A stretch of DNA of 29,218 nt from a virus. The stretch lies in UHGV virus genome UHGV-0177389. One strand, written 5' to 3'. Shown here in pieces: positions 15,058 to 26,062 of the stretch. Below the pieces are notes generated by a model that was not told the DNA's origin, searched no databases, and was given only the letters and a program-made list of their open reading frames with translations. Position numbers and translations under genes: made by a program. Positions within the stretch are counted from its first letter, which is position 1, and each line of letters begins with the position of its first letter.

Positions 15058-15071
15058 TTCAATGACTCCGG

Positions 15072-15278
15072 TTACTGACCAAGCAGCGTTTTACCGCTGG
15101 TATTAGCGGTTGATGTGTCGCCCTGAGAACCGGTAAGCAGCGTAGAACTACGACCAGCAGCAGCGCGACGGCGACGAGTTTCTTCGTCGCGGGCATCAAC
15201 AACGGCGGCATCCTGCTCCTGTGGTGCTGCCTGAACTTCTGGTGTTGCAGGCACTGATGGTGAGCTACCCATGCACAT
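15072..15278 (-). CDS. small hypothetical protein (68 aa), low complexity
   Basis: ORF track; start context GGAGTCATTGATATG nearly identical to the portal start context GGAGTCATTGAAATG. Confidence 0.35.
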   Translation of the reverse strand: MCMGSSPSVPATPEVQAAPQEQDAAVVDARDEETRRRRAAAGRSSTLLTGSQGDTSTANTSGKTLLGQ

Positions 15279-15346
15279 ATCAATGACTCCGTACGCAATT
15301 AAATTATTACCAATTTAACCACATATGATTTATTTATCGTAGATGG

Positions 15347-15383
15347 TTGACATTTAATGCACGAATTATTACCCTTCAGGTAA
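15347..15383 (+). promoter_or_regulatory. TTGACA -35-like hexamer followed by a perfect TTACC-N5-GGTAA operator-type palindrome (15369-15383)
   Basis: Seen in sequence; the palindrome matches the immunity-region operators; strand of the promoter is uncertain. Confidence 0.35.
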
Positions 15384-15705
15384 GTAAATAGTTCATTCCG
15401 GTTATTAACCTGACTGGCTTGTCGTTAAATTGAACAGGTGGAGTGAGCTTTTATTTTGAGCAGTACGGCGTATGGCACATGCGCCGATAGCGGTCTGGAT
15501 ACGTTTAAGGGGCACCCTCCCTTGCTCGGGCAAACGAACCAGGTAGCCGGAATGTGCAAGTCGAGCGGTTTTATTCCGCGCACGGGGATTCACCATCCCG
15601 GCGATTCGGTGTGACGCCTCGGAAGAGACGAGGGTGCAACGATGAGAGCATTTATGGAGCCGCGACAAAGTGTGGCGCCTTAACAGGCTAAGTGCTCTCA
15701 GCGTT

Positions 15706-15782
15706 GTGGCATTAGCTCAGTTGGACAGAGCAACCGCCTTCTAAGCGGTTGGTCGCAGGTTCGAATCCTGCATGCCACGCCA
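15706..15782 (+). tRNA. tRNA-Arg (anticodon UCU)
   Basis: Manual cloverleaf: 7-bp acceptor stem GTGGCAT/ATGCCAC, D arm GCTC...GAGC, anticodon stem ACCGC/GCGGT with loop CTTCTAA (anticodon TCT), T arm GCAGG-TTCGAAT-CCTGC, encoded CCA. Confidence 0.9.
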
Positions 15783-15825
15783 GAATCACGCCTAAGGACC
15801 GTGATGCCAGAAGTTCCAGGGGCTT

Positions 15826-15867
15826 GGCGGTGATGGTTTCCCTTGAAGGACTATCACCGCCCTTTTT
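15826..15867 (+). terminator. intrinsic terminator candidate downstream of the tRNA
   Basis: 9-bp stem GGCGGTGAT/ATCACCGCC followed by TTTTT. Confidence 0.55.
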
Positions 15868-15945
15868 ACAGCAGGACGCCATTGCGATGACTTCATGCTG
15901 TAAACCAGTACAGCCACGGAAGGCATAACTCATTGCTTCCAGTTC

Positions 15946-15969
15946 GCCCGGTTCGCCGGGCATTTTTTT
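15946..15969 (+). terminator. intrinsic terminator candidate (GCCCGG-TTCG-CCGGGC plus T7 run)
   Basis: 6-bp GC stem with TTCG tetraloop followed by ATTTTTTT, ending about 16 nt before the ATG at 15986. Confidence 0.6.
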
Positions 15970-15985
15970 AAGGTGAGATTAGACT

Positions 15986-16357
15986 ATGAGTGACAAAGAC
16001 ATTGAATCTGAAATTCAGGCTAAAGGTTTAGCCGCGCCGCGCGTTACGCCAGACCATATCGAGAGCATTATTGCTCAGGAGGCATATTTCACAGCAGAAG
16101 ATGGTGTCTTTGGCGTAGCCATAAAAGCGAAACATACTGGCGGAGAGGTAAACTACCAGCCGCACGAATCACTTTCTCTGCTGACGTTCTGCGTTCTGGT
16201 GCTGCGCAACGGCTTCACCGTCACCGGAGAGAGCGCCTGTGCAAGCCCGGAAAACTTTGATGCGGAAATTGGTCGGAAGATTGCCCGGCAGAATGCTGTA
16301 AACAAAATCTGGATGCTTGAAGGTTACTTGCTGAAGCAGAAGTTAAGCGAGCAATAA
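15986..16357 (+). CDS. hypothetical protein (123 aa), opposite-strand moron inside the morphogenesis module
   Basis: ORF track; ATG preceded by AAGGTGAGA; followed by a palindrome and a terminator; function unknown. Confidence 0.55.
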   Translation: MSDKDIESEIQAKGLAAPRVTPDHIESIIAQEAYFTAEDGVFGVAIKAKHTGGEVNYQPHESLSLLTFCVLVLRNGFTVTGESACASPENFDAEIGRKIARQNAVNKIWMLEGYLLKQKLSEQ

Positions 16358-16361
16358 CACC

Positions 16362-16373
16362 GTGACATGTCAC
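16362..16373. repeat. perfect 12-bp palindrome GTGACATGTCAC, copy 1 (14-bp identity CGTGACATGTCACA with copy 2)
   Basis: Seen in sequence; lies between the 123-aa ORF stop and the terminase large subunit stop. Confidence 0.6.
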
Positions 16374-16377
16374 AAAC

Positions 16378-16404
16378 AGCCAGCCGATGAGCTGGCTTTG
16401 TTTT
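16378..16404 (+). terminator. intrinsic terminator candidate
   Basis: Stem AGCCAGC/GCTGGCT with 6-nt loop followed by TTGTTTT. Confidence 0.6.
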
Positions 16405-16447
16405 ATCCTCACCAGAGGATATCTCCGTCATTATCCCCGCTAACGGA

Positions 16448-18513: not shown

Positions 18514-18557
18514 CATAACCACCGTGGTAATAGTTACCGTTGTGGTAATAGTACCAT

Positions 18558-18585
18558 GCAAAATAAAGCCGCCATAGTTGGCGGC
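18558..18585 (-). terminator. intrinsic terminator candidate immediately upstream of terS
   Basis: 7-bp stem GCCGCCA/TGGCGGC with 4-nt loop, followed on the minus strand by TTTATTTT. Confidence 0.55.
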
Positions 18586-21518: not shown

Positions 21519-21994
21519 TGGTTGCCTCCTTTGCGAAGCTGTTCCGCACAATGCAGCAGGGCGTCCGTCGCATATTTAAGCCTCACTAGCTCACCATCAT
21601 CCATTCCCGCGAGATTCGCGTGTTTAACGAACGCCGAGCAAAGGTCATTAAACGCCTGCGCACGTACTTCAGCCAGGAAAGCATCGGTGGCTGGAGTTTC
21701 GATATCGTTAATTTCAGGAAGAATCTCTTCCCATGTAGCGATATCGCCATTCAAATGCCATCCGGCAATTCCACTGGAGTTATCCGCAACACTCCGAACG
21801 GCTTCAATAGTTTCATGCATTGCCGCACTCTCCGCCGCCAGCGCATTAGCACGCACCAGTTGCACTTCCAGTTGCGTTGCCAAATCGCTGATCAGCTTTG
21901 CCACACTGCGCATATCAACGGCACCACATTCTGCTTTCAGTTCCGAAGCCATCTCATGCCCGGCGGCAACTAACCCTTTGATATTACTTTCCAT
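21515..21994 (-). CDS. hypothetical protein (159 aa), possibly Ea22/ead-like
   Basis: ORF track; GAGGG RBS; segment TDAFLAEVRAQ recalled from Ea22-like proteins. Confidence 0.45.
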   Translation of the reverse strand: MESNIKGLVAAGHEMASELKAECGAVDMRSVAKLISDLATQLEVQLVRANALAAESAAMHETIEAVRSVADNSSGIAGWHLNGDIATWEEILPEINDIETPATDAFLAEVRAQAFNDLCSAFVKHANLAGMDDGELVRLKYATDALLHCAEQLRKGGNQ

Positions 21995-22055
21995 CTTTAC
22001 CCTCGCTTATCCACATAACTTATTGATTACATTGATAACTAAATAGATCGTCGAT

Positions 22056-22403
22056 TCAGAACTCTTCGATGTTCCAGCCACCACCTGCTTTCTTTGGTTT
22101 AACCGTTACCCCGATGATTCGGAACGGATACTGATCTGCGGCGACTTTGGTTTTCACTCTGGCGTCATCGGTCCAGAATCCCCCTTTCACTTCGTGCAGC
22201 TCCATCTCGCCGGTGGCGAGCATCACAGCGAAATCGGGCGTATAGAACGTGTTATTAGCTAACCGCAGCTTGATACCCTCGAATCGATACCAGGCGATTT
22301 CCCCTGCACGTTTACGCAGCTCAAGGTGCTGGCAATACGCAGATTCTGTTTTGTTCATCTGGCCTGTTTTGAGTCGACCAAGAGCCTGTATCTGTTTTCT
22401 CAT
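22056..22403 (-). CDS. putative PD-(D/E)xK nuclease-fold protein (115 aa, DUF1064-like)
   Basis: ORF track; AAGGGG RBS; candidate motif TPDF...ELHEVKGG; first gene after the internal operator-flanked promoter. Confidence 0.45.
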   Translation of the reverse strand: MRKQIQALGRLKTGQMNKTESAYCQHLELRKRAGEIAWYRFEGIKLRLANNTFYTPDFAVMLATGEMELHEVKGGFWTDDARVKTKVAADQYPFRIIGVTVKPKKAGGGWNIEEF

Positions 22404-22406
22404 GAT

Positions 22407-22483
22407 TTACCCCTTAGGTAATTAAAAACCACATAAGACATGAAATCAATAGAGATTAGAACATTTTATTACCTTCCAGGTAA
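22407..22483 (-). promoter_or_regulatory. internal promoter flanked by two TTACC-N5-GGTAA operators
   Basis: Minus strand reads operator (22469-22483), 19 nt, -35 TTGATT (22444-22449), 17 nt, -10 TTTAAT (22421-22426), operator (22407-22421), AAGGGG RBS, ATG at 22403. Confidence 0.5.
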
Positions 22484-22496
22484 TCATATAGACGTA

Positions 22497-22515
22497 AAAA
22501 AATGCGCTATCGCGC
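22497..22515 (-). terminator. weak intrinsic terminator candidate after the P-like gene
   Basis: 4-bp GC stem with 4-nt loop followed on the minus strand by ATTTTTTT; stem is short. Confidence 0.3.
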
Positions 22516-22520
22516 TGGTA

Positions 22521-23306
22521 TTACTTGATAAATCCTGCCGCCTTTCCCCGCCTGTATTCCTCCATCAGCCACTGCGCCGGTGTTATTCCCCCAAGGGTGG
22601 CGGCGTTAGGCATGCACCCGAAACTTCGCCCTGGTGGATGGTAAACGTCTCTCCCTGTGTCCGGAGGCGTACTCATGGGCTCTGGCTTTGCCTGTATGCT
22701 GATCACCGGATCGGGTATCTGCTGTCCGGAAGCCACCTTTTTCGCCCAATCATCGAGCAGCCTGCGTGCGTGTTTCTCAACCTCAATCTCGCTAAGCTGG
22801 CGCTGATACATTGCACGGCGGGTATCACATACGACCCAGTACATAACCGGATGTCGCCACGGGAATCTTTCGGGACCACCAGGATATAAACTTTTTTCCT
22901 TGCTGTACCGGTGAAACTCCGCCATCACATCGTCAATGGTGACGCCAAGAACCATCTTGCTGTCTTTGCACCACTTGATAAATTGCCCTGGAGACGGCCA
23001 GAACGGAGATTCACTGGCGCGGGCGTGGCGCATACCAGCAGAAACCTGTTCACGGGTTCGGATCCCCCCTTCGGCAAACGCAGCAATCCACTGCTGTTTT
23101 GCAGCAACTTCCTGCTCTGGCGTCTTCAGGTTGGTTACCACTGCCGCCGGAAACAGTTGTTTCAGCTGTTTAAAAAGGGCATCAACAAGCCTCTCTGCTG
23201 ACATGTTCACCACATTGTCATTGTTGACGTACTGATGCTCATAACCTGACATGCGAGAAAGGGCTTCTCCGTCACGGTTTTGTATCGCGGTAAAAACGTT
23301 GTTCAC
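22521..23306 (-). CDS. replication protein P-like (helicase loader)
   Basis: ORF track 22521..23321; GTG at 23306 preferred because GGAGGA lies 6 nt upstream and it overlaps the O-like stop; core W(I/V)xAFxExGI...GMRxAR...PFxPSPGQFxxWC matches recalled lambda P. Confidence 0.7.
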   Translation of the reverse strand: MNNVFTAIQNRDGEALSRMSGYEHQYVNNDNVVNMSAERLVDALFKQLKQLFPAAVVTNLKTPEQEVAAKQQWIAAFAEGGIRTREQVSAGMRHARASESPFWPSPGQFIKWCKDSKMVLGVTIDDVMAEFHRYSKEKSLYPGGPERFPWRHPVMYWVVCDTRRAMYQRQLSEIEVEKHARRLLDDWAKKVASGQQIPDPVISIQAKPEPMSTPPDTGRDVYHPPGRSFGCMPNAATLGGITPAQWLMEEYRRGKAAGFIK

Positions 23307-24118
23307 AAGAAATCCTCCCATGCTTCAGGGCTGTTCCAGTGCGGAACGTTGTTATCAGGTAATGTTGATTGCTTCTGTCTGCTAATCTGCAGCCGCCTTG
23401 CCAGCTTCTGCTCCCACTGTGCCTGATGGTATGCCTTACCCTCAGCCATCCAGTAAATTCTGAACTCTGCAAGTTCCTGTGCCGTTGGCAGACTGTCCAG
23501 GTAGATCCCCTGCAATGAGCTTTTCCGAAGAAAGTCATCTGATGGCTGCCATTGTTCATGCATGACAAATTTGCCTAATTGCCCTGGCCCACCAGGAGGA
23601 ACAAAGTTATTCATCACGGCGTTGTTTGCTCCGGGGTCATGAGGCACAGAATCCCCGCTTTTTGTCCTGCTCTCCCTCTCTTGGTTAAATGACTGGTTAT
23701 ATGACTGGTTCTGGATCCCGTTTTTGGGATCATTCAACATCCCGTTTTTGGGATCATTCAACATCCCGTTTTTGGGTATATTCCCGTTTTCGGTAACATT
23801 ACCGTTTTCGGGTTCATTGCCCCCCTCCCGGTTGCCTTTAATGTTCCCGTTTTTGGTTATATTAAGAGAGAAAACCCGCACTCTTTTTGTCGCTCCCTTT
23901 CTCTCTCCGGTATCTGAAATAAGCCCCATTTTCATGAGCGATATAAGCCCGGCCTGCACGGTTTTTTTATTCAGGCAAGTGTCTTTAACGAGGCGTTCTA
24001 TGCTGGGGTAGCAGAGGTTATATTCATCGGCTCTGTCAGCCATCGAGAGCAGTATGAGCTTTAATGATGAGCTACCTGGATCTGTCTCCCAGGCCCAATC
24101 TGTTGCATGTCTGCTCAT
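23303..24118 (-). CDS. replication initiator O-like protein
   Basis: ORF track; GGAG RBS; directly upstream of and overlapping the P-like gene; iteron array inside the coding sequence encodes an Asn/Gly-rich repetitive linker, as in lambda O. Confidence 0.65.
   Translation of the reverse strand: MSRHATDWAWETDPGSSSLKLILLSMADRADEYNLCYPSIERLVKDTCLNKKTVQAGLISLMKMGLISDTGERKGATKRVRVFSLNITKNGNIKGNREGGNEPENGNVTENGNIPKNGMLNDPKNGMLNDPKNGIQNQSYNQSFNQERESRTKSGDSVPHDPGANNAVMNNFVPPGGPGQLGKFVMHEQWQPSDDFLRKSSLQGIYLDSLPTAQELAEFRIYWMAEGKAYHQAQWEQKLARRLQISRQKQSTLPDNNVPHWNSPEAWEDFL
23712..23862. repeat. iteron array, putative origin of replication inside the O-like gene
   Basis: At least six direct repeats with core CCCGTTTT(T)GG; the first three are 24-bp units starting at 23717, 23741 and 23765. 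Confidence 0.65.
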
Positions 24119-24133
24119 GATTAATCTCCGCTA

Positions 24134-24334
24134 TCAGCTTGAATGTTGTGGGGAGGAATTAATCATGATCTGCTTAATCTCTGCCCTGATACGACGGTTT
24201 GATTCCATGGTGCACTCAACACAGTGTCCGTTGTAAACCCAGCGTTCACTGTCATGTCCGTGCTTACATGTTTTTCCGGTGTAGTAGCGTTTAAGTCCGC
24301 GCTTTGCGGCATCAATACGTGTAATGATTTCCAT
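24134..24334 (-). CDS. small putative zinc-binding protein (66 aa) at the cII position
   Basis: ORF track 24134..24397 (TTG start) trimmed to ATG at 24334; motif CKHGH...CVEC; stop overlaps region just upstream of the O-like start. Confidence 0.4.
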   Translation of the reverse strand: MEIITRIDAAKRGLKRYYTGKTCKHGHDSERWVYNGHCVECTMESNRRIRAEIKQIMINSSPQHSS

Positions 24335-24414
24335 GGTAAGCCCTGTTATTAGTATTGGGATTACGGTCATTTTGTGCTGACACAAAAAAAATATCAACCA
24401 TATTTGGTTTTTTA

Positions 24415-24429
24415 TTACCTTTGAGGTAC
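24415..24429. promoter_or_regulatory. imperfect operator-like site TTACC-TTTGA-GGTAC with downstream -35-like TTGATA
   Basis: Seen in sequence; on the minus strand reads site, 18 nt, TTGATA, 17 nt, CAAAAT (weak -10). Confidence 0.3.
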
Positions 24430-24440
24430 GAATAGATATG

Positions 24441-24462
24441 AAAAGACCGCCGGGTGGCGGTC
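24441..24462 (-). terminator. intrinsic terminator candidate after the cro-like gene (tR1-like position)
   Basis: 7-bp stem GACCGCC/GGCGGTC followed on the minus strand by TTTTCATATCTATT, about 23 nt after the cro-like stop. Confidence 0.5.
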
Positions 24463-24484
24463 TACAGAGGGTTGTAGCTGGATA

Positions 24485-24715
24485 TCATGAGTAGAAGAAG
24501 TATGCCAGTTCTGCTTTTGAGCGCAGCCATTGTCTTGTTTTACAGGCTTTAAAAAGCCCATTCATCAATACTTTACCTGGCATTTTGCGCTTACCTGTTA
24601 AGTGAGTCTGGATATAGTGACTCGTCGTTCCGGCTTCCTGTGCGAAGGCTTCACGCTCATCCGGAGTAAGTGCAAGCCAGTGCTTTTTGAAATCGAAATG
24701 TCCGTTATCGCTCAT
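24485..24715 (-). CDS. Cro-like HTH DNA-binding protein (76 aa)
   Basis: ORF track; divergent from the repressor gene across an operator-containing intergenic region; HTH-like segment AGTTSHYIQTHLTGKR. Confidence 0.55.
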   Translation of the reverse strand: MSDNGHFDFKKHWLALTPDEREAFAQEAGTTSHYIQTHLTGKRKMPGKVLMNGLFKACKTRQWLRSKAELAYFFYS

Positions 24716-24751
24716 AGCTATTGCCTGATATTTATTTCAGATAATAAATAT

Positions 24752-24814
24752 TCACCCATAAGGTAACAAAAATCAAGGATAGTTACCCATGAGGTGCATT
24801 TACCTGTTGGGTAA
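24752..24814. promoter_or_regulatory. right operator region: three TTACC-N5-GGTAA-type sites plus cro-like promoter
   Basis: Sites at 24752-24766 (TCACC-CATAA-GGTAA), 24783-24797 (TTACC-CATGA-GGTGC) and 24800-24814 (perfect); minus-strand -35 TTGATT (24771-24776) and -10 GAATAT (24748-24753), 17-nt spacer. Confidence 0.55.
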
Positions 24815-24869
24815 TATTGCTTTAAATTGAATCATCTACTGATTCATATATGAGGCGATTTTCCAGAAA

Positions 24870-25454
24870 ATGAAAAGTATCCAGGACGTCCGCAGGCAAA
24901 ATCTCAACGACTTGATCGACCGTGAATTCAATGGTGTTCAGACGCGGATGGCTGAAAAACTTGGAACTCAGGCAAATCTGGTAAACCGCTGGGCTCTTGG
25001 TAAGAAGGTTATCGGCGATCAGGTTGCGCGAAAAATTGAAGCTGCCGCCAATAAACCCCGTAACTGGCTTGATATCGATCGCTCGCTTTCTCAGGAAGGT
25101 TTTCAGCCTGTCGGCCCAAGCGACATTGGCCAGCTGGCGGCTCACAACCTGGAACGCTGGATGAGCGAAAGCCGCGACCTTTCAACACAGGGAAAACTTC
25201 ACCGCGCATCCGGCGTAGCCCAGGTGACAATCAGCCGCCTGTTAAACAATGAGGTCAGCGTTTCCATTTCCACCCTGGAGAATGTTGCATCCGCATTCGG
25301 GCGTCACGGCTATGAATTACTGATTCACCCGCACGACCCTGCGACCATCAACTATGATCGCTCGCGCTACGCATTGTTACCCGAAACCGAGAAAGCAAAG
25401 ATCGAAAGTTACATTGAATTTGTCATCAACCAGAACGAAAAAAACAAACAATAA
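24870..25454 (+). CDS. prophage repressor (194 aa) with two predicted HTH segments and no recognisable S24 peptidase domain
   Basis: ORF track; HTH-like TRMAEKLGTQANLVNRW and ASGVAQVTISRLLNNE; divergent from the cro-like gene; operators on both sides. Confidence 0.6.
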   Translation: MKSIQDVRRQNLNDLIDREFNGVQTRMAEKLGTQANLVNRWALGKKVIGDQVARKIEAAANKPRNWLDIDRSLSQEGFQPVGPSDIGQLAAHNLERWMSESRDLSTQGKLHRASGVAQVTISRLLNNEVSVSISTLENVASAFGRHGYELLIHPHDPATINYDRSRYALLPETEKAKIESYIEFVINQNEKNKQ

Positions 25455-25475
25455 AACCATATTTTTCAGTAAGTA

Positions 25476-25499
25476 AGCCGCCTTATGGCGGCTTTTTTA
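25476..25499 (+). terminator. intrinsic terminator after the repressor gene
   Basis: 7-bp stem AGCCGCC/GGCGGCT with 4-nt loop followed by TTTTTTA, 22 nt after the stop. Confidence 0.65.
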
Positions 25500-25511
25500 T
25501 TGCCTATTCGA

Positions 25512-25588
25512 TTACCTAACGGGTAATTTTTTTAACTCATATCTATTGACATCAAACCATATACGCATAATTATTACCTCAACGGTAA
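25512..25588 (+). promoter_or_regulatory. left operator region: two perfect TTACC-N5-GGTAA sites flanking a promoter
   Basis: Sites at 25512-25526 and 25574-25588; -35 TTGACA at 25546-25551; -10-like AATTAT about 17 nt downstream; precedes the plus-strand early operon. Confidence 0.55.
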
Positions 25589-25607
25589 CAGACCGAGGTA
25601 ACAAGTT

Positions 25608-25760
25608 ATGCAGTGGAAAATCATCAACGGTTGGTACTGCGTTACTGCATGCGGATTCATGAGCTGGAAGTTCCGCACCTTACAGGAAGGCATTAAGTGG
25701 GCTTTCGTCAGCAAAGAAGCTCGCGATGTGGCCAACGATAACGAGATATGGGAGGGCTGA
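25608..25760 (+). CDS. small Trp/Cys-containing protein (50 aa), first ORF after the left promoter
   Basis: Manual translation MQWKIINGWYCVTACGFMSWKFRTLQEGIKWAFVSKEARDVANDNEIWEG; GAGGTAAC upstream of ATG; below the ORF-track size cut-off. Confidence 0.35.
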   Translation: MQWKIINGWYCVTACGFMSWKFRTLQEGIKWAFVSKEARDVANDNEIWEG

Positions 25761-25762
25761 TA

Positions 25763-26062
25763 ATGAACGTTAATCAGCAGAAAAATCTTCAAAAAATCAT
25801 GCTGGCATTCGACAAGGACTACCGTCTGTCAGAACAGCTATATGACCGACAAGTTGAACTGATTGAGAGTATCCGGCTTCATCAACTGGCATCAACTTTC
25901 GACGTTGTAACAGTTAAAGGCGTTCGCCAGGAAGTACTGGAGGCTGCTAAAGACAGCCCTGAGTTCGAAGAACTGATGGATGCCTATCGGCGAGAGGCAA
26001 TGGCAATTATCGCCCGCTGGGATCTGGCGGATCAGCTTGATGGACAGAGGGACGCGGCATGA
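25763..26062 (+). CDS. hypothetical protein (99 aa)
   Basis: ORF track 25748..26062 trimmed to ATG at 25763 with GGAGGG 6 nt upstream; ATGA overlap with the next gene. Confidence 0.45.
   Translation: MNVNQQKNLQKIMLAFDKDYRLSEQLYDRQVELIESIRLHQLASTFDVVTVKGVRQEVLEAAKDSPEFEELMDAYRREAMAIIARWDLADQLDGQRDAA

What the first reader, a model, noticed from the sequence alone, without database searches (positions are those of the whole stretch)
22404..22520. Operator-sandwiched internal promoter with upstream terminator between the P-like gene and the accessory block
On the minus strand the order is P-like stop, U-tract hairpin, operator, -35 TTGATT, 17 nt, -10 TTTAAT, operator, RBS, ATG at 22403. The same operator/-35/-10/operator layout is seen at the left promoter (25512-25588). 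The early-right arm therefore appears split into terminator-bounded units, each with its own repressor-controlled promoter.
Basis: partly seen in the sequence, partly recalled or inferred. Interest (0 to 1): 0.6.

Follow-up and report, generated by a model that had tools for sequence, protein, structure and literature searches.

The report
Repressor-guarded internal promoter in phiV10-like phage
The spacer between the replication gene and the accessory genes of this phiV10/epsilon15-type E. coli phage holds a conserved weak terminator, then a promoter flanked by two repressor-binding palindromes; this is an ordinary, partly annotated piece of phage wiring, not a new kind of element.

Summary
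On the minus strand, the P-like stop (22521) is followed by a 4-bp GCGC hairpin with a T7 run. Next come the palindrome TTACCTGGAAGGTAA, TTGATT, 17 nt, TTTAAT, the palindrome TTACCTAAGGGGTAA and the ATG at 22403.

The window is a Uetakevirus (phiV10/epsilon15 group). Its 194-aa repressor is a homologue of the solved SPC32H Rep. TTACC-N5-GGTAA occurs 10 times in the window against 0.48 expected.

The internal cassette has exactly the geometry of PL (operators 62 bp apart). It is 52% identical to PL outside the half-sites, so it is a paralogous terminator-operator-promoter-operator module.

It aligns without gaps in 12 relatives from four host genera. It sits between at least three downstream gene families and several upstream ones. 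Hairpin, T-run, -35 and -10 vary less than synonymous sites.

Best reading: a repressor-controlled secondary early promoter behind a leaky terminator.

Caveats:
- The hairpin is weak.
- The -10 lacks the canonical A at position 2 in this lineage.
- No transcript data exist.

The epsilon15 record already marks the orthologous upstream palindrome as a repressor site, and phiV10 marks the terminator. Interest is modest.

The parts
22521..23321 (-). Lambda-P-like replication gene. Its stop codon opens the spacer.
   Evidence: Pfam Phage_lambda_P, E 1.5e-56. ORF listed.
22496..22515 (-). Weak intrinsic-terminator-like hairpin: GCGC-GATA-GCGC, then A, then T7.
   Evidence: Sequence. The RNA fold gives a 4-bp inner stem and -8.4 kcal/mol for 43 nt (z -2.1), against -15 and -21 kcal/mol for the cro and rep terminators. 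Stem and T7 are invariant in 12 relatives while the loop varies. Entropy is 0.03 bit. phiV10 annotates it as a putative terminator.
22469..22483 (-). Distal (upstream) Rep-type operator TTACCTGGAAGGTAA. With its flanks it is a perfect ATTACC-N5-GGTAAT.
   Evidence: The orthologous site in epsilon15 (35906-35922) is annotated 'protein_bind repressor'. Half-sites are invariant and the N5 core is hypervariable.
22444..22449 (-). -35 hexamer TTGATT, inside the conserved CTATTGA shared with PL.
   Evidence: Entropy is 0.03 bit.
22421..22426 (-). -10 hexamer TTTAAT after a 17-nt spacer. It matches 5 of 6 positions but has T instead of A at position 2.
   Evidence: It is invariant in 32 unique E. coli-lineage cassettes.
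22407..22421 (-). Proximal Rep-type operator TTACCTAAGGGGTAA. It overlaps the last base of the -10, the predicted start site (about 22414-22413) and the Shine-Dalgarno purines (22415-22410).
22056..22403 (-). First gene of the accessory block, a 115-aa DUF1064 protein.
   Evidence: Pfam DUF1064, E 1e-5 and 26.3 bits against a cutoff of 24.7. In relatives it is replaced by a RuvC-like or another gene behind the same cassette.
24870..25454 (+). Rep, the prophage repressor with two HTH-type domains. It is the presumed binder of the palindromes.
   Evidence: Pfam HTH hits at residues 21-61 and 106-147. PDB 5D50 (SPC32H repressor), E 4e-42 over residues 1-190. The N-terminal stretch NLVNRW..G.K.IG is invariant across the genus.
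25475..25588 (+). PL cassette, the paralogous module: rep terminator (25475-25494), operator 25512-25526, TTGACA 25546-25551, AATTAT 25569-25574, operator 25574-25588.
   Evidence: Outside the half-sites 49 of 95 positions are identical to the internal cassette in an ungapped alignment; the null is 23.9 +/- 4.3.
24752..24814 (.). Operator pair, 48 bp apart, in the divergent rep / cro-like control region.
24369..24463 (-). Third, partly decayed module: strong cro terminator (24463-24444), 1-mismatch palindrome GTACCTCAAAGGTAA (24429-24415), then TTGATA-17-CAAAAT (24397-24369).
   Evidence: Fold is -15 kcal/mol, z -4.8. Conserved across the genus.
18516..18548 (-). Two adjacent palindromes between a terminator hairpin and the small-terminase start.
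   Evidence: Conserved in ZX5, TL-2011b, phiv142-3 and PAT1.

Best explanation
The spacer 22404-22520 is one of three paralogous 'terminator - operator - promoter - operator' modules in the early region of a phiV10/epsilon15-type temperate phage.

Proposed mechanism:

1. Transcripts coming from the replication genes meet a short GCGC hairpin and a U7 tract. This probably stops only part of them.
2. Directly behind it, a sigma-70-type promoter (TTGATT, 17 nt, TTTAAT) starts a very short-leadered mRNA at about 22414-22413. This mRNA covers the DUF1064 nuclease-like gene and the roughly 3.8-kb accessory block.
3. In the lysogen the phage repressor Rep, a homologue of the SPC32H Rep that citing literature describes as binding DNA as a tetramer, occupies the two TTACC-N5-GGTAA palindromes.
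4. These palindromes bracket the promoter 62 bp apart, about six helical turns, so they face the same side of the helix.
5. The proximal site covers the -10 edge, the start site and the ribosome-binding site. One tetramer bridging both sites would trap the promoter in a small loop.
6. When Rep is inactivated, this promoter fires together with PL and PR. The accessory block therefore does not depend on read-through.

What is shown: the sequence anatomy, the paralogy with PL, conservation and purifying selection across the genus, and the homology of Rep to SPC32H Rep.

What is inferred: Rep binding at these two sites, bridging or looping, promoter activity, the start site, and partial termination.
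For: - Exact anatomy.
- Motif enrichment: 10 sites against 0.48 expected.
- Geometry identical to PL, with distances of 34, 28 and 62 nt.
- Ungapped identity to PL outside the half-sites is 49 of 95. The null is 23.9 +/- 4.3, and only the cassette itself and PL reach this value among 58,206 placements.
- Twelve relatives found by BLAST, not by the motif, keep both palindromes at 62 bp. They also keep CTATTGA, the AT-rich -10, the hairpin and the T7 in an ungapped alignment, although the upstream gene (P-like, DnaT-like or other) and the downstream gene (DUF1064 or RuvC) differ.
- IMG/VR gave 72 unique cassettes, with three downstream gene families (DUF1064, RuvC-like, one other) and 22 distinct upstream C-terminal 8-mers falling into several unrelated groups.
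- In 32 unique E. coli-lineage copies, entropy is 0.03 bit for hairpin+T7, 0.03 for the -35 and 0.00 for the -10. Third codon positions of the adjacent P gene have 0.23.
- Spacings between adjacent palindromes in 120 loci fall into discrete classes: 17/18, 48, 62/63 and 76 bp. Those loci were selected for having a 62-bp pair.
- Rep matches PDB 5D50 at E 4e-42 and has an invariant N-terminal motif across the genus.
- Rep of SPC32H is described as binding DNA as a tetramer whose DNA-binding pairs come from different dimers (PMC9638917).
- epsilon15 RefSeq annotates the orthologous distal palindrome as a repressor site.
Against: - No transcript, footprint or reporter data are available for any member.
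- The -10 TTTAAT has T at position 2, the most conserved base of sigma-70 -10 elements (my own knowledge). No register with a 16-18 nt spacer has both A2 and T6 in this lineage (34 of 64 unique cassettes). The other 30 have TAAATT or TATATT at an 18-nt spacing. The generic scan did not call the promoter.
- The hairpin has only four pairs. It is far weaker than the two neighbouring terminators and shows no covariation, because the stem never varies.
- The predicted leader is only about 11 nt, with the Shine-Dalgarno sequence at its extreme 5' end.
- The invariance of the half-sites in the IMG/VR set is forced by the search pattern. Only the 12 BLAST-derived phages are an independent test.
- A 62-bp loop needs strong DNA bending, and nothing here tests that.
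Confidence: 0.66

Rival explanations
1. Insulator or roadblock only. The hairpin with U7 and the two Rep-bound palindromes serve to stop leaky transcription from the replication genes entering the accessory block in the lysogen. No initiation occurs here, and lytic expression of DUF1064 comes from read-through of the weak terminator.
For: - The -10 is defective at position 2 in this lineage.
- The hairpin is weak, so read-through is likely.
- Upstream of terS the same palindromes sit behind a terminator with no visible -35. Rep sites without an obvious promoter therefore exist in this genome.
Against: - The -35 (CTATTGA) and the -10 block are invariant and more conserved than synonymous sites. 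A pure roadblock does not explain that.
- The geometry and sequence are paralogous to PL, which must be a promoter because it follows the strong rep terminator.
- Relatives carry better -10 elements at the same place.
Confidence: 0.17
2. The palindromes at this site are mainly targets of the small cro-like protein (24485-24715, minus strand). That protein would turn the accessory promoter down later in lytic growth, rather than Rep silencing it in the lysogen.
For: In lambdoid phages Cro and the repressor share operators (my own knowledge). A 76-aa gene sits in the cro position, divergent from rep.
Against: - The protein has no Pfam HTH hit, so DNA binding is not established.
- This reading adds to Rep control and does not exclude it.
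- Pairs of sites fit the tetrameric Rep described in the literature.
Confidence: 0.1
3. RNA-level element. On read-through transcripts the palindromes fold into hairpins that mask the ribosome-binding site or act as processing sites.
For: The proximal palindrome contains the Shine-Dalgarno purines and can form a small hairpin.
Against: - The fold of 22395-22430 is -4.2 kcal/mol with z -0.14. The whole spacer gives z -0.76, no better than shuffles.
- There is no Rfam match.
- The arms never vary, so there is no covariation.
- The same motif occurs in both transcriptional orientations and in untranscribed control regions.
Confidence: 0.03
4. A non-functional relic: a duplicated copy of the PL region that now serves only as a homologous linker for mosaic recombination between gene modules.
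For: The cassette boundaries coincide with the points where flanking genes are exchanged, directly 5' of the hairpin and at the ATG.
Against: The functional sub-elements show much lower entropy than synonymous sites, while the non-contacted N5 core is free to vary. That is the signature of selection on function, not of a relic.
Confidence: 0.04

Closest known systems
Repressor-binding sites annotated in Salmonella phage epsilon15 (NC_004775: 32479-32632 and 35906-35922) and the terminator annotated in phiV10 (35038-35057)
   Same: This is the orthologous spacer. The epsilon15 site ATTACCAAAAGGGTAAT aligns column for column with the window's distal palindrome, and the phiV10 terminator is the same hairpin with T7.
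   Different: Those records annotate only one palindrome (epsilon15) or only the terminator (phiV10). Neither annotates the proximal palindrome, the promoter, the 62-bp sandwich or the paralogy with PL. All of these annotations are predictions. I could not read the epsilon15 genome paper (PMC2698709), so I do not know how much it discusses.
SPC32H Rep/Ant switch (PDB 5D50, 5D4Z; Kim & Ryu 2013, Kim et al. 2016, known to me only through citing papers)
   Same: The window's repressor is a full-length homologue (E 4e-42). SPC32H carries the same internal cassette with two palindromes 62 bp apart (L004 4534 and 4596). Tetrameric DNA binding with two DNA-binding pairs fits operators that come in pairs.
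   Different: About 43% identity. As far as I could check, the published work concerns the immunity region and the antirepressor. Binding at the internal site is not documented in anything I could read.
Lambda OL/PL and OR/PR (CI and Cro operators)
   Same: Palindromic operators of a prophage repressor overlap early promoters. The gene order (leftward operon, PL, repressor, PRM/PR, cro, replication genes) is the same.
   Different: Lambda has adjacent operators overlapping the -35 and -10, only two operator regions, and relies on N antitermination to pass terminators. Here the operators flank the promoter 62 bp apart, further guarded promoters sit behind internal terminators, and no N-like function was identified (not tested).
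Auxiliary-operator looping by tetrameric repressors (lac O1/O3, gal OE/OI with GalR and HU)
   Same: Two operators bracket a promoter at an in-phase distance, and the repressor has two DNA-binding pairs. Lac repressor is known to form loops with operator spacings around 60-80 bp (my own knowledge).
   Different: Looping is not shown here. The protein fold is unrelated. Both operators lie within 70 bp of the start site.
Dispersed repressor regulons of phage P1 (C1 operators) and mycobacteriophage L5 (gp71 stoperators)
   Same: One prophage repressor has many sites spread through the genome, beyond the immunity region, guarding several transcription units.
   Different: P1 and L5 sites are asymmetric, and L5 stoperators act on elongation in one orientation. 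Here the sites are symmetric, paired, and mostly placed around recognisable promoters.

Membership tests
Sigma-70-type promoter | -35 hexamer close to TTGACA | tested here: met
   TTGATT, 4 of 6, at 22449-22444. CTATTGA is invariant in 12 relatives and shared with PL.
Sigma-70-type promoter | Spacer of 16-18 nt | tested here: met
   17 nt, 22443-22427.
Sigma-70-type promoter | -10 hexamer with A at position 2 and T at position 6 | tested here: not met
   TTTAAT matches 5 of 6 but has T at position 2. No 16-18 nt register has both key bases in this lineage. Relatives have TAAATT at 18 nt. The scan did not call it.
Sigma-70-type promoter | Mapped primary transcription start | not testable with these tools
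   No transcript data are available.
Operator of the SPC32H/epsilon15-type Rep repressor | Palindrome TTACC-N5-GGTAA, as in the sites annotated as repressor-binding in epsilon15 | tested here: met
   Two exact copies at 22483-22469 and 22421-22407. The epsilon15 annotated sites have the same sequence form.
Operator of the SPC32H/epsilon15-type Rep repressor | Cognate repressor encoded by the same element | tested here: met
   The 194-aa protein at 24870-25454 matches PDB 5D50 at E 4e-42.
Operator of the SPC32H/epsilon15-type Rep repressor | Half-sites conserved while the central spacer varies across relatives | tested here: met
   In 12 phages found by BLAST the half-sites are invariant and N5 is free. 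N5 entropy is 1.18 bit.
Operator of the SPC32H/epsilon15-type Rep repressor | Demonstrated binding by Rep | not testable with these tools
   This needs gel-shift or footprinting. The primary SPC32H papers are not held.
Intrinsic (rho-independent) terminator | G+C-rich stem of at least about 5 pairs | tested here: not met
   Only 4 G-C pairs with a tetraloop. The scan needs 5 pairs or more and did not call it.
Intrinsic (rho-independent) terminator | Run of U directly 3' of the stem | tested here: met
   A plus T7 at 22503-22496, invariant in relatives.
Intrinsic (rho-independent) terminator | Position just after a stop codon, and conservation | tested here: met
   It starts 6 nt after the P-like stop. 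It is kept behind unrelated upstream genes and has entropy 0.03 bit.
Intrinsic (rho-independent) terminator | Stem supported by compensatory changes | tested here: inconclusive
   The stem never varies and only the loop does, so covariation says nothing either way.
L5-type stoperator | Asymmetric site acting in one orientation within transcribed DNA, without an associated promoter | tested here: not met
   The sites are symmetric and bracket a conserved -35/-10 pair.

The most novel reading that the evidence does not exclude
The whole Uetakevirus genome may be run as a distributed Rep regulon without antitermination. It would contain at least five Rep-guarded nodes, most placed directly behind a terminator: PL, PR/PRM, post-cro, post-replication and pre-terS, plus a site in a tRNA/moron island. 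At the sandwich nodes a single Rep tetramer would clamp both palindromes and wrap the promoter in a 62-bp micro-loop. The hypervariable N5 core of the distal palindrome would tune affinity or reflect a mutational hotspot at the protein-bound or hairpin-prone centre.
Probability: 0.3. Interest if true: 0.5.

Novelty: new member of a known kind. Interest (0 to 1): 0.3.

Why it matters
Prophages carrying this cassette are in about one in ten complete E. coli genomes (528 of 5426). They also occur in Salmonella, Klebsiella and Enterobacter.

If the model holds, three things follow:

- Induction switches on several promoters at once, so accessory and nuclease genes do not depend on read-through from PR.
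- The tetrameric Rep of this group, already an unusual structural case, gets a natural substrate: paired operators at fixed, in-phase spacing.
- The compact, about 115-bp terminator-operator-promoter-operator module could be reused as a tightly repressible expression cassette. It is also worth knowing for engineering phiV10-type reporter phages.

None of this overturns current understanding of temperate-phage regulation.

Tried and rejected
- **Primary literature.** I tried to read the epsilon15 genome paper (DOI and PMC2698709) and both SPC32H Rep papers (PMC3807360, PMC4983836). None is held. What is known about operators comes only from GenBank feature tables and citing papers.
- **ZX5 paper (PMC9782041).** It mentions four predicted promoters and repressor/antirepressor effects, but gives no operator or position data.
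- **Other literature searches.** Searches for Uetakevirus, phiV10, epsilon15 and operator found nothing further.
- **Generic promoter/terminator scan.** It missed both internal elements. This is explained by its thresholds and is not evidence of absence.
- **Rfam.** The scan of 21800-25800 at E up to 1 gave only chance hits on the rep terminator.
- **RNA-structure reading of the palindromes.** Rejected, with z -0.14 and -0.76.
- **Antisense promoter on the plus strand of the spacer.** I looked by eye and found no convincing hexamer pair. This was not tested further.
- **IMG/VR pattern scan.** It forces the half-sites and the 62-bp spacing, so I did not use it as evidence for their conservation. 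I used it only for the unforced columns and for flanking-gene diversity.

Full report
**What the window is.** The 4.7 kb around the finding is 97-98% identical to Escherichia phages phiV10, vB_EcoP_PAS61, phiv142-3 and relatives, genus Uetakevirus, the epsilon15 group. The 136-nt spacer is 100% identical to phage EC.W1-9.

The gene order is lambda-like, as shown by ORFs, Pfam and the phiV10 annotation:
- A leftward operon runs on the plus strand from 25608.
- The repressor gene lies at 24870-25454 (+).
- A divergent cro-like gene lies at 24485-24715 (-).
- These are followed on the minus strand by a small gene, a DnaT/O-like gene (23303-24118) and a lambda-P-like gene (22521-23321; Phage_lambda_P, E 1.5e-56).
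- Next comes the spacer in question, and then a DUF1064 gene (22056-22403) heading a block of Eae/Ead-type accessory genes that ends before the small terminase.

**Check of the observation.**
- Stop codon at 22523-22521.
- Hairpin GCGC-GATA-GCGC at 22515-22504, then A and T7 at 22503-22496.
- Palindrome TTACCTGGAAGGTAA at 22483-22469.
- TTGATT at 22449-22444, a 17-nt spacer, and TTTAAT at 22426-22421.
- Palindrome TTACCTAAGGGGTAA at 22421-22407.
- ATG at 22403.

The only correction is that the Shine-Dalgarno purines lie inside the proximal palindrome.

TTACC-N5-GGTAA with up to one mismatch occurs 10 times in the window against 0.48 expected, and no shuffle of 100 reached 10. The sites come in pairs: 25512/25574, 24752/24800, 22407/22469 and 18516/18534. 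There are also singles at 24415 and 15369.

The PL region has the same layout. In both cassettes the distal palindrome starts 34 nt before the -35. The -35 starts 28 nt before the proximal palindrome, and the palindromes are 62 bp apart.

**The two cassettes are paralogues.** I aligned 115 nt of each without gaps, from the terminator stem to just past the proximal palindrome. Outside the masked half-sites, 49 of 95 positions are identical. Random placements in the window give 23.9 +/- 4.3. Among 58,206 placements only the cassette itself and PL reach 49. The similarity includes the position of the terminator, the T-run, the stretch before the distal palindrome and CTATTGA.

PL must be a real promoter because it follows the strong terminator of the repressor gene (-21.1 kcal/mol, z -5.5). 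The paralogy therefore argues that the internal copy is also a promoter module.

**Who binds.** The 194-aa protein at 24870-25454 has two HTH-type domains. It matches the solved repressor of Salmonella phage SPC32H over its full length (5D50, E 4e-42).

Across five Reps from four host genera, overall identity to the window protein is 43-78%. An N-terminal stretch (NLVNRW..G.K.IG) is invariant. That fits the shared half-site.

A citing paper summarises that SPC32H Rep binds DNA as a tetramer. The pairs of DNA-binding domains that contact a palindrome come from different dimers, and one tetramer suffices for repression (PMC9638917). A tetramer with two such pairs fits operators that occur in pairs.

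I could not read the primary papers. Rep binding to this particular spacer therefore remains an inference.

**Comparative evidence.** BLAST with the spacer, which is not a motif search, found 36 phage records. I fetched 11 relatives plus phiV10 and epsilon15.
- All 12 phages (the window plus 11 relatives) carry both palindromes with exact half-sites, exactly 62 bp apart.
- The whole cassette aligns without a single gap from the hairpin to the ATG.
- Invariant or nearly invariant blocks are GCGC...GCGC, T7-AC, both half-site pairs, an A-rich stretch after the distal site, CTATTGA, T.TGG, the AT-rich -10 block and GGTAAA.
- The hairpin loop, the N5 cores and the stretch between the distal site and the -35 vary.
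- The flanks are not conserved. The upstream gene is P-like in the E. coli, Enterobacter and some Klebsiella phages, and a DnaT-like or other replication gene in the Salmonella group and others.
- The downstream gene is DUF1064 in some relatives and a RuvC-type resolvase in epsilon15, Tyrion and PAT1.

From these I obtained 72 unique internal cassettes. They have three downstream gene families (DUF1064, RuvC-like, one other) and 22 distinct upstream C-terminal 8-mers that fall into several unrelated groups. That scan forces the half-sites and the spacing, so I used it only for the unforced columns.

**Selection.** I analysed 32 unique E. coli-lineage copies with the same flanking genes. Mean column entropies, in bits, were:

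| Region | Entropy (bit) |
|---|---|
| Hairpin + T7 | 0.03 |
| -35 | 0.03 |
| -10 | 0.00 |
| -35 to -10 spacer | 0.20 |
| Third codon positions, adjacent P gene | 0.23 |
| Third codon positions, DUF1064 gene | 0.48 |
| N5 core of the distal palindrome | 1.18 |

The hairpin, T-run and promoter hexamers are therefore under purifying selection. The N5 core of the distal palindrome varies far more than synonymous sites. I have no tested explanation for that.

**Weak points.**
- The hairpin has only four G-C pairs. The 43-nt fold is -8.4 kcal/mol (z -2.1), against -15.0 (z -4.8) for the cro terminator and -21.1 for the rep terminator. The scan, which requires five pairs, did not call it. I read it as a partial terminator or pause.
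- The -10 TTTAAT matches 5 of 6 but has T at position 2, normally the most conserved base (my own knowledge). In 34 of 64 unique cassettes, including this one, no register with a 16-18 nt spacer has both A2 and T6. The other 30 have TAAATT or TATATT at 18 nt. In this lineage the promoter is probably weak, or helped by something not identified.
- The predicted leader is about 11 nt.
- No transcript data exist for any member that I could find.

**The wider layout.**
- After the cro-like gene there is a strong terminator (24463-24444). It is followed by a one-mismatch palindrome (24429-24415) and TTGATA-17-CAAAAT (24397-24369).
- Across the genus this region keeps the hairpin, a half-decayed palindrome ending in GGTAAT, TTGATC and CAAAAT. 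In several phages a TTACC half-site directly follows the -10. This is a third, partly decayed copy of the same module.
- Before the small terminase gene, a good hairpin with a T-run is followed by two adjacent palindromes that reach the start codon. No -35 is visible there.
- In the 120 IMG/VR loci, which were selected for having a 62-bp pair, spacings between adjacent palindromes fall into discrete classes: 17/18, 48, 62/63 and 76 bp.

**Rivals.**
- A pure roadblock or insulator reading explains the operators and the hairpin. It does not explain the invariant -35 and -10 or the paralogy with PL.
- An RNA-structure reading is not supported (z -0.14 and -0.76; no Rfam family).
- A relic or linker reading is contradicted by the selection profile.
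- Binding by the cro-like protein is possible in addition to Rep. It cannot be assessed, because the protein has no recognisable domain.

**Comparison with what is known.** The closest precedent is the element itself in the type phages.
- The epsilon15 RefSeq record marks ATTACCAAAAGGGTAAT at 35906-35922, between the replication gene and the resolvase gene, as a repressor-binding site.
- The phiV10 records mark the hairpin as a putative terminator.
- Neither record marks the proximal palindrome or a promoter.

In mechanism it resembles lambda-type operator control combined with auxiliary-operator bridging by a tetramer, as in lac or gal. In genome-wide layout it resembles the dispersed repressor regulons of P1 and L5. 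It is a new, well-supported member of a known kind and is already partly annotated.

**Prevalence.** The cassette is present in 528 of 5426 complete E. coli genomes.

**Verdict.** Novelty is low to moderate, and I score interest at 0.3.

Noticed in passing
window 18516-18585 (minus strand): Two adjacent Rep-type palindromes (TTACCACAACGGTAA, 3 bp, TTACCACGGTGGTTA) fill the gap between a good hairpin with a T-run (GCCGCC-AACTAT-GGCGGC-TTTATTTT) and the small-terminase start codon. A TACTAT abuts the first palindrome as at PL, but there is no -35. Entry into the late genes may therefore also be Rep-guarded, or may use an activator-dependent promoter. The pair is conserved in ZX5, TL-2011b, phiv142-3 and PAT1.
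   Followed up: partly
window 24369-24463 (minus strand): A third, partly decayed copy of the terminator-operator-promoter module lies after the cro-like gene. It has a strong terminator, the palindrome GTACCTCAAAGGTAA and TTGATA-17-CAAAAT. It is conserved across the genus, and some relatives keep a TTACC half-site right after the -10.
   Followed up: partly
window 15058-16447; palindrome at 15369-15383: A 1.4-kb island lies between the portal-like and large-terminase-like genes and is transcribed the opposite way. It holds tRNA-Arg(TCT) at 15706-15782 (+) and a 123-aa ORF at 15986-16357 (+). Upstream, a perfect TTGACA (about 15346-15351, +) is followed 17 nt later by TACCCT inside an exact Rep palindrome. 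This could be a Rep-controlled moron promoter.
   Followed up: partly
window 22469-22483 and 25512-25526, and the homologous columns in L013-L132: The five central bases of the distal palindrome, and a few bases just upstream of it, are hypervariable among otherwise near-identical E. coli-lineage phages. Their entropy is 1.18 bit against 0.23 at third codon positions of the neighbouring gene. By eye, PL shows the same pattern. The proximal palindrome core is much less variable. The cause is unknown; candidates are affinity tuning, a mutational hotspot at the centre of a palindrome, or recombination.
   Followed up: partly
window 22056-22403 and the homologous position in L002, L005, L011 and IMG/VR loci: Behind the same cassette the first gene is either a DUF1064 protein (114-117 aa), a RuvC-type Holliday-junction resolvase (153-154 aa) or, rarely, a 100-aa protein. 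This non-orthologous replacement suggests that DUF1064 is a structure-specific nuclease doing the resolvase's job.
   Followed up: no
window 24870-25454 (Rep) compared with L002, L004, L005, L006: The N-terminal domain of Rep is much better conserved than the C-terminal half across host genera, and all these phages use the same half-site. They may therefore be homo-immune at the operator level while differing in the antirepressor-binding domain.
   Followed up: no
window 23725-23768 (plus strand): The terminator scan lists a tandem duplicate, TGGGATCATTCAACATCCCG-TTTTTGG, twice and 24 bp apart, on the strand antisense to the DnaT/O-like replication gene. These could be iteron-like origin repeats inside the initiator gene, as in lambda O.
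   Followed up: no
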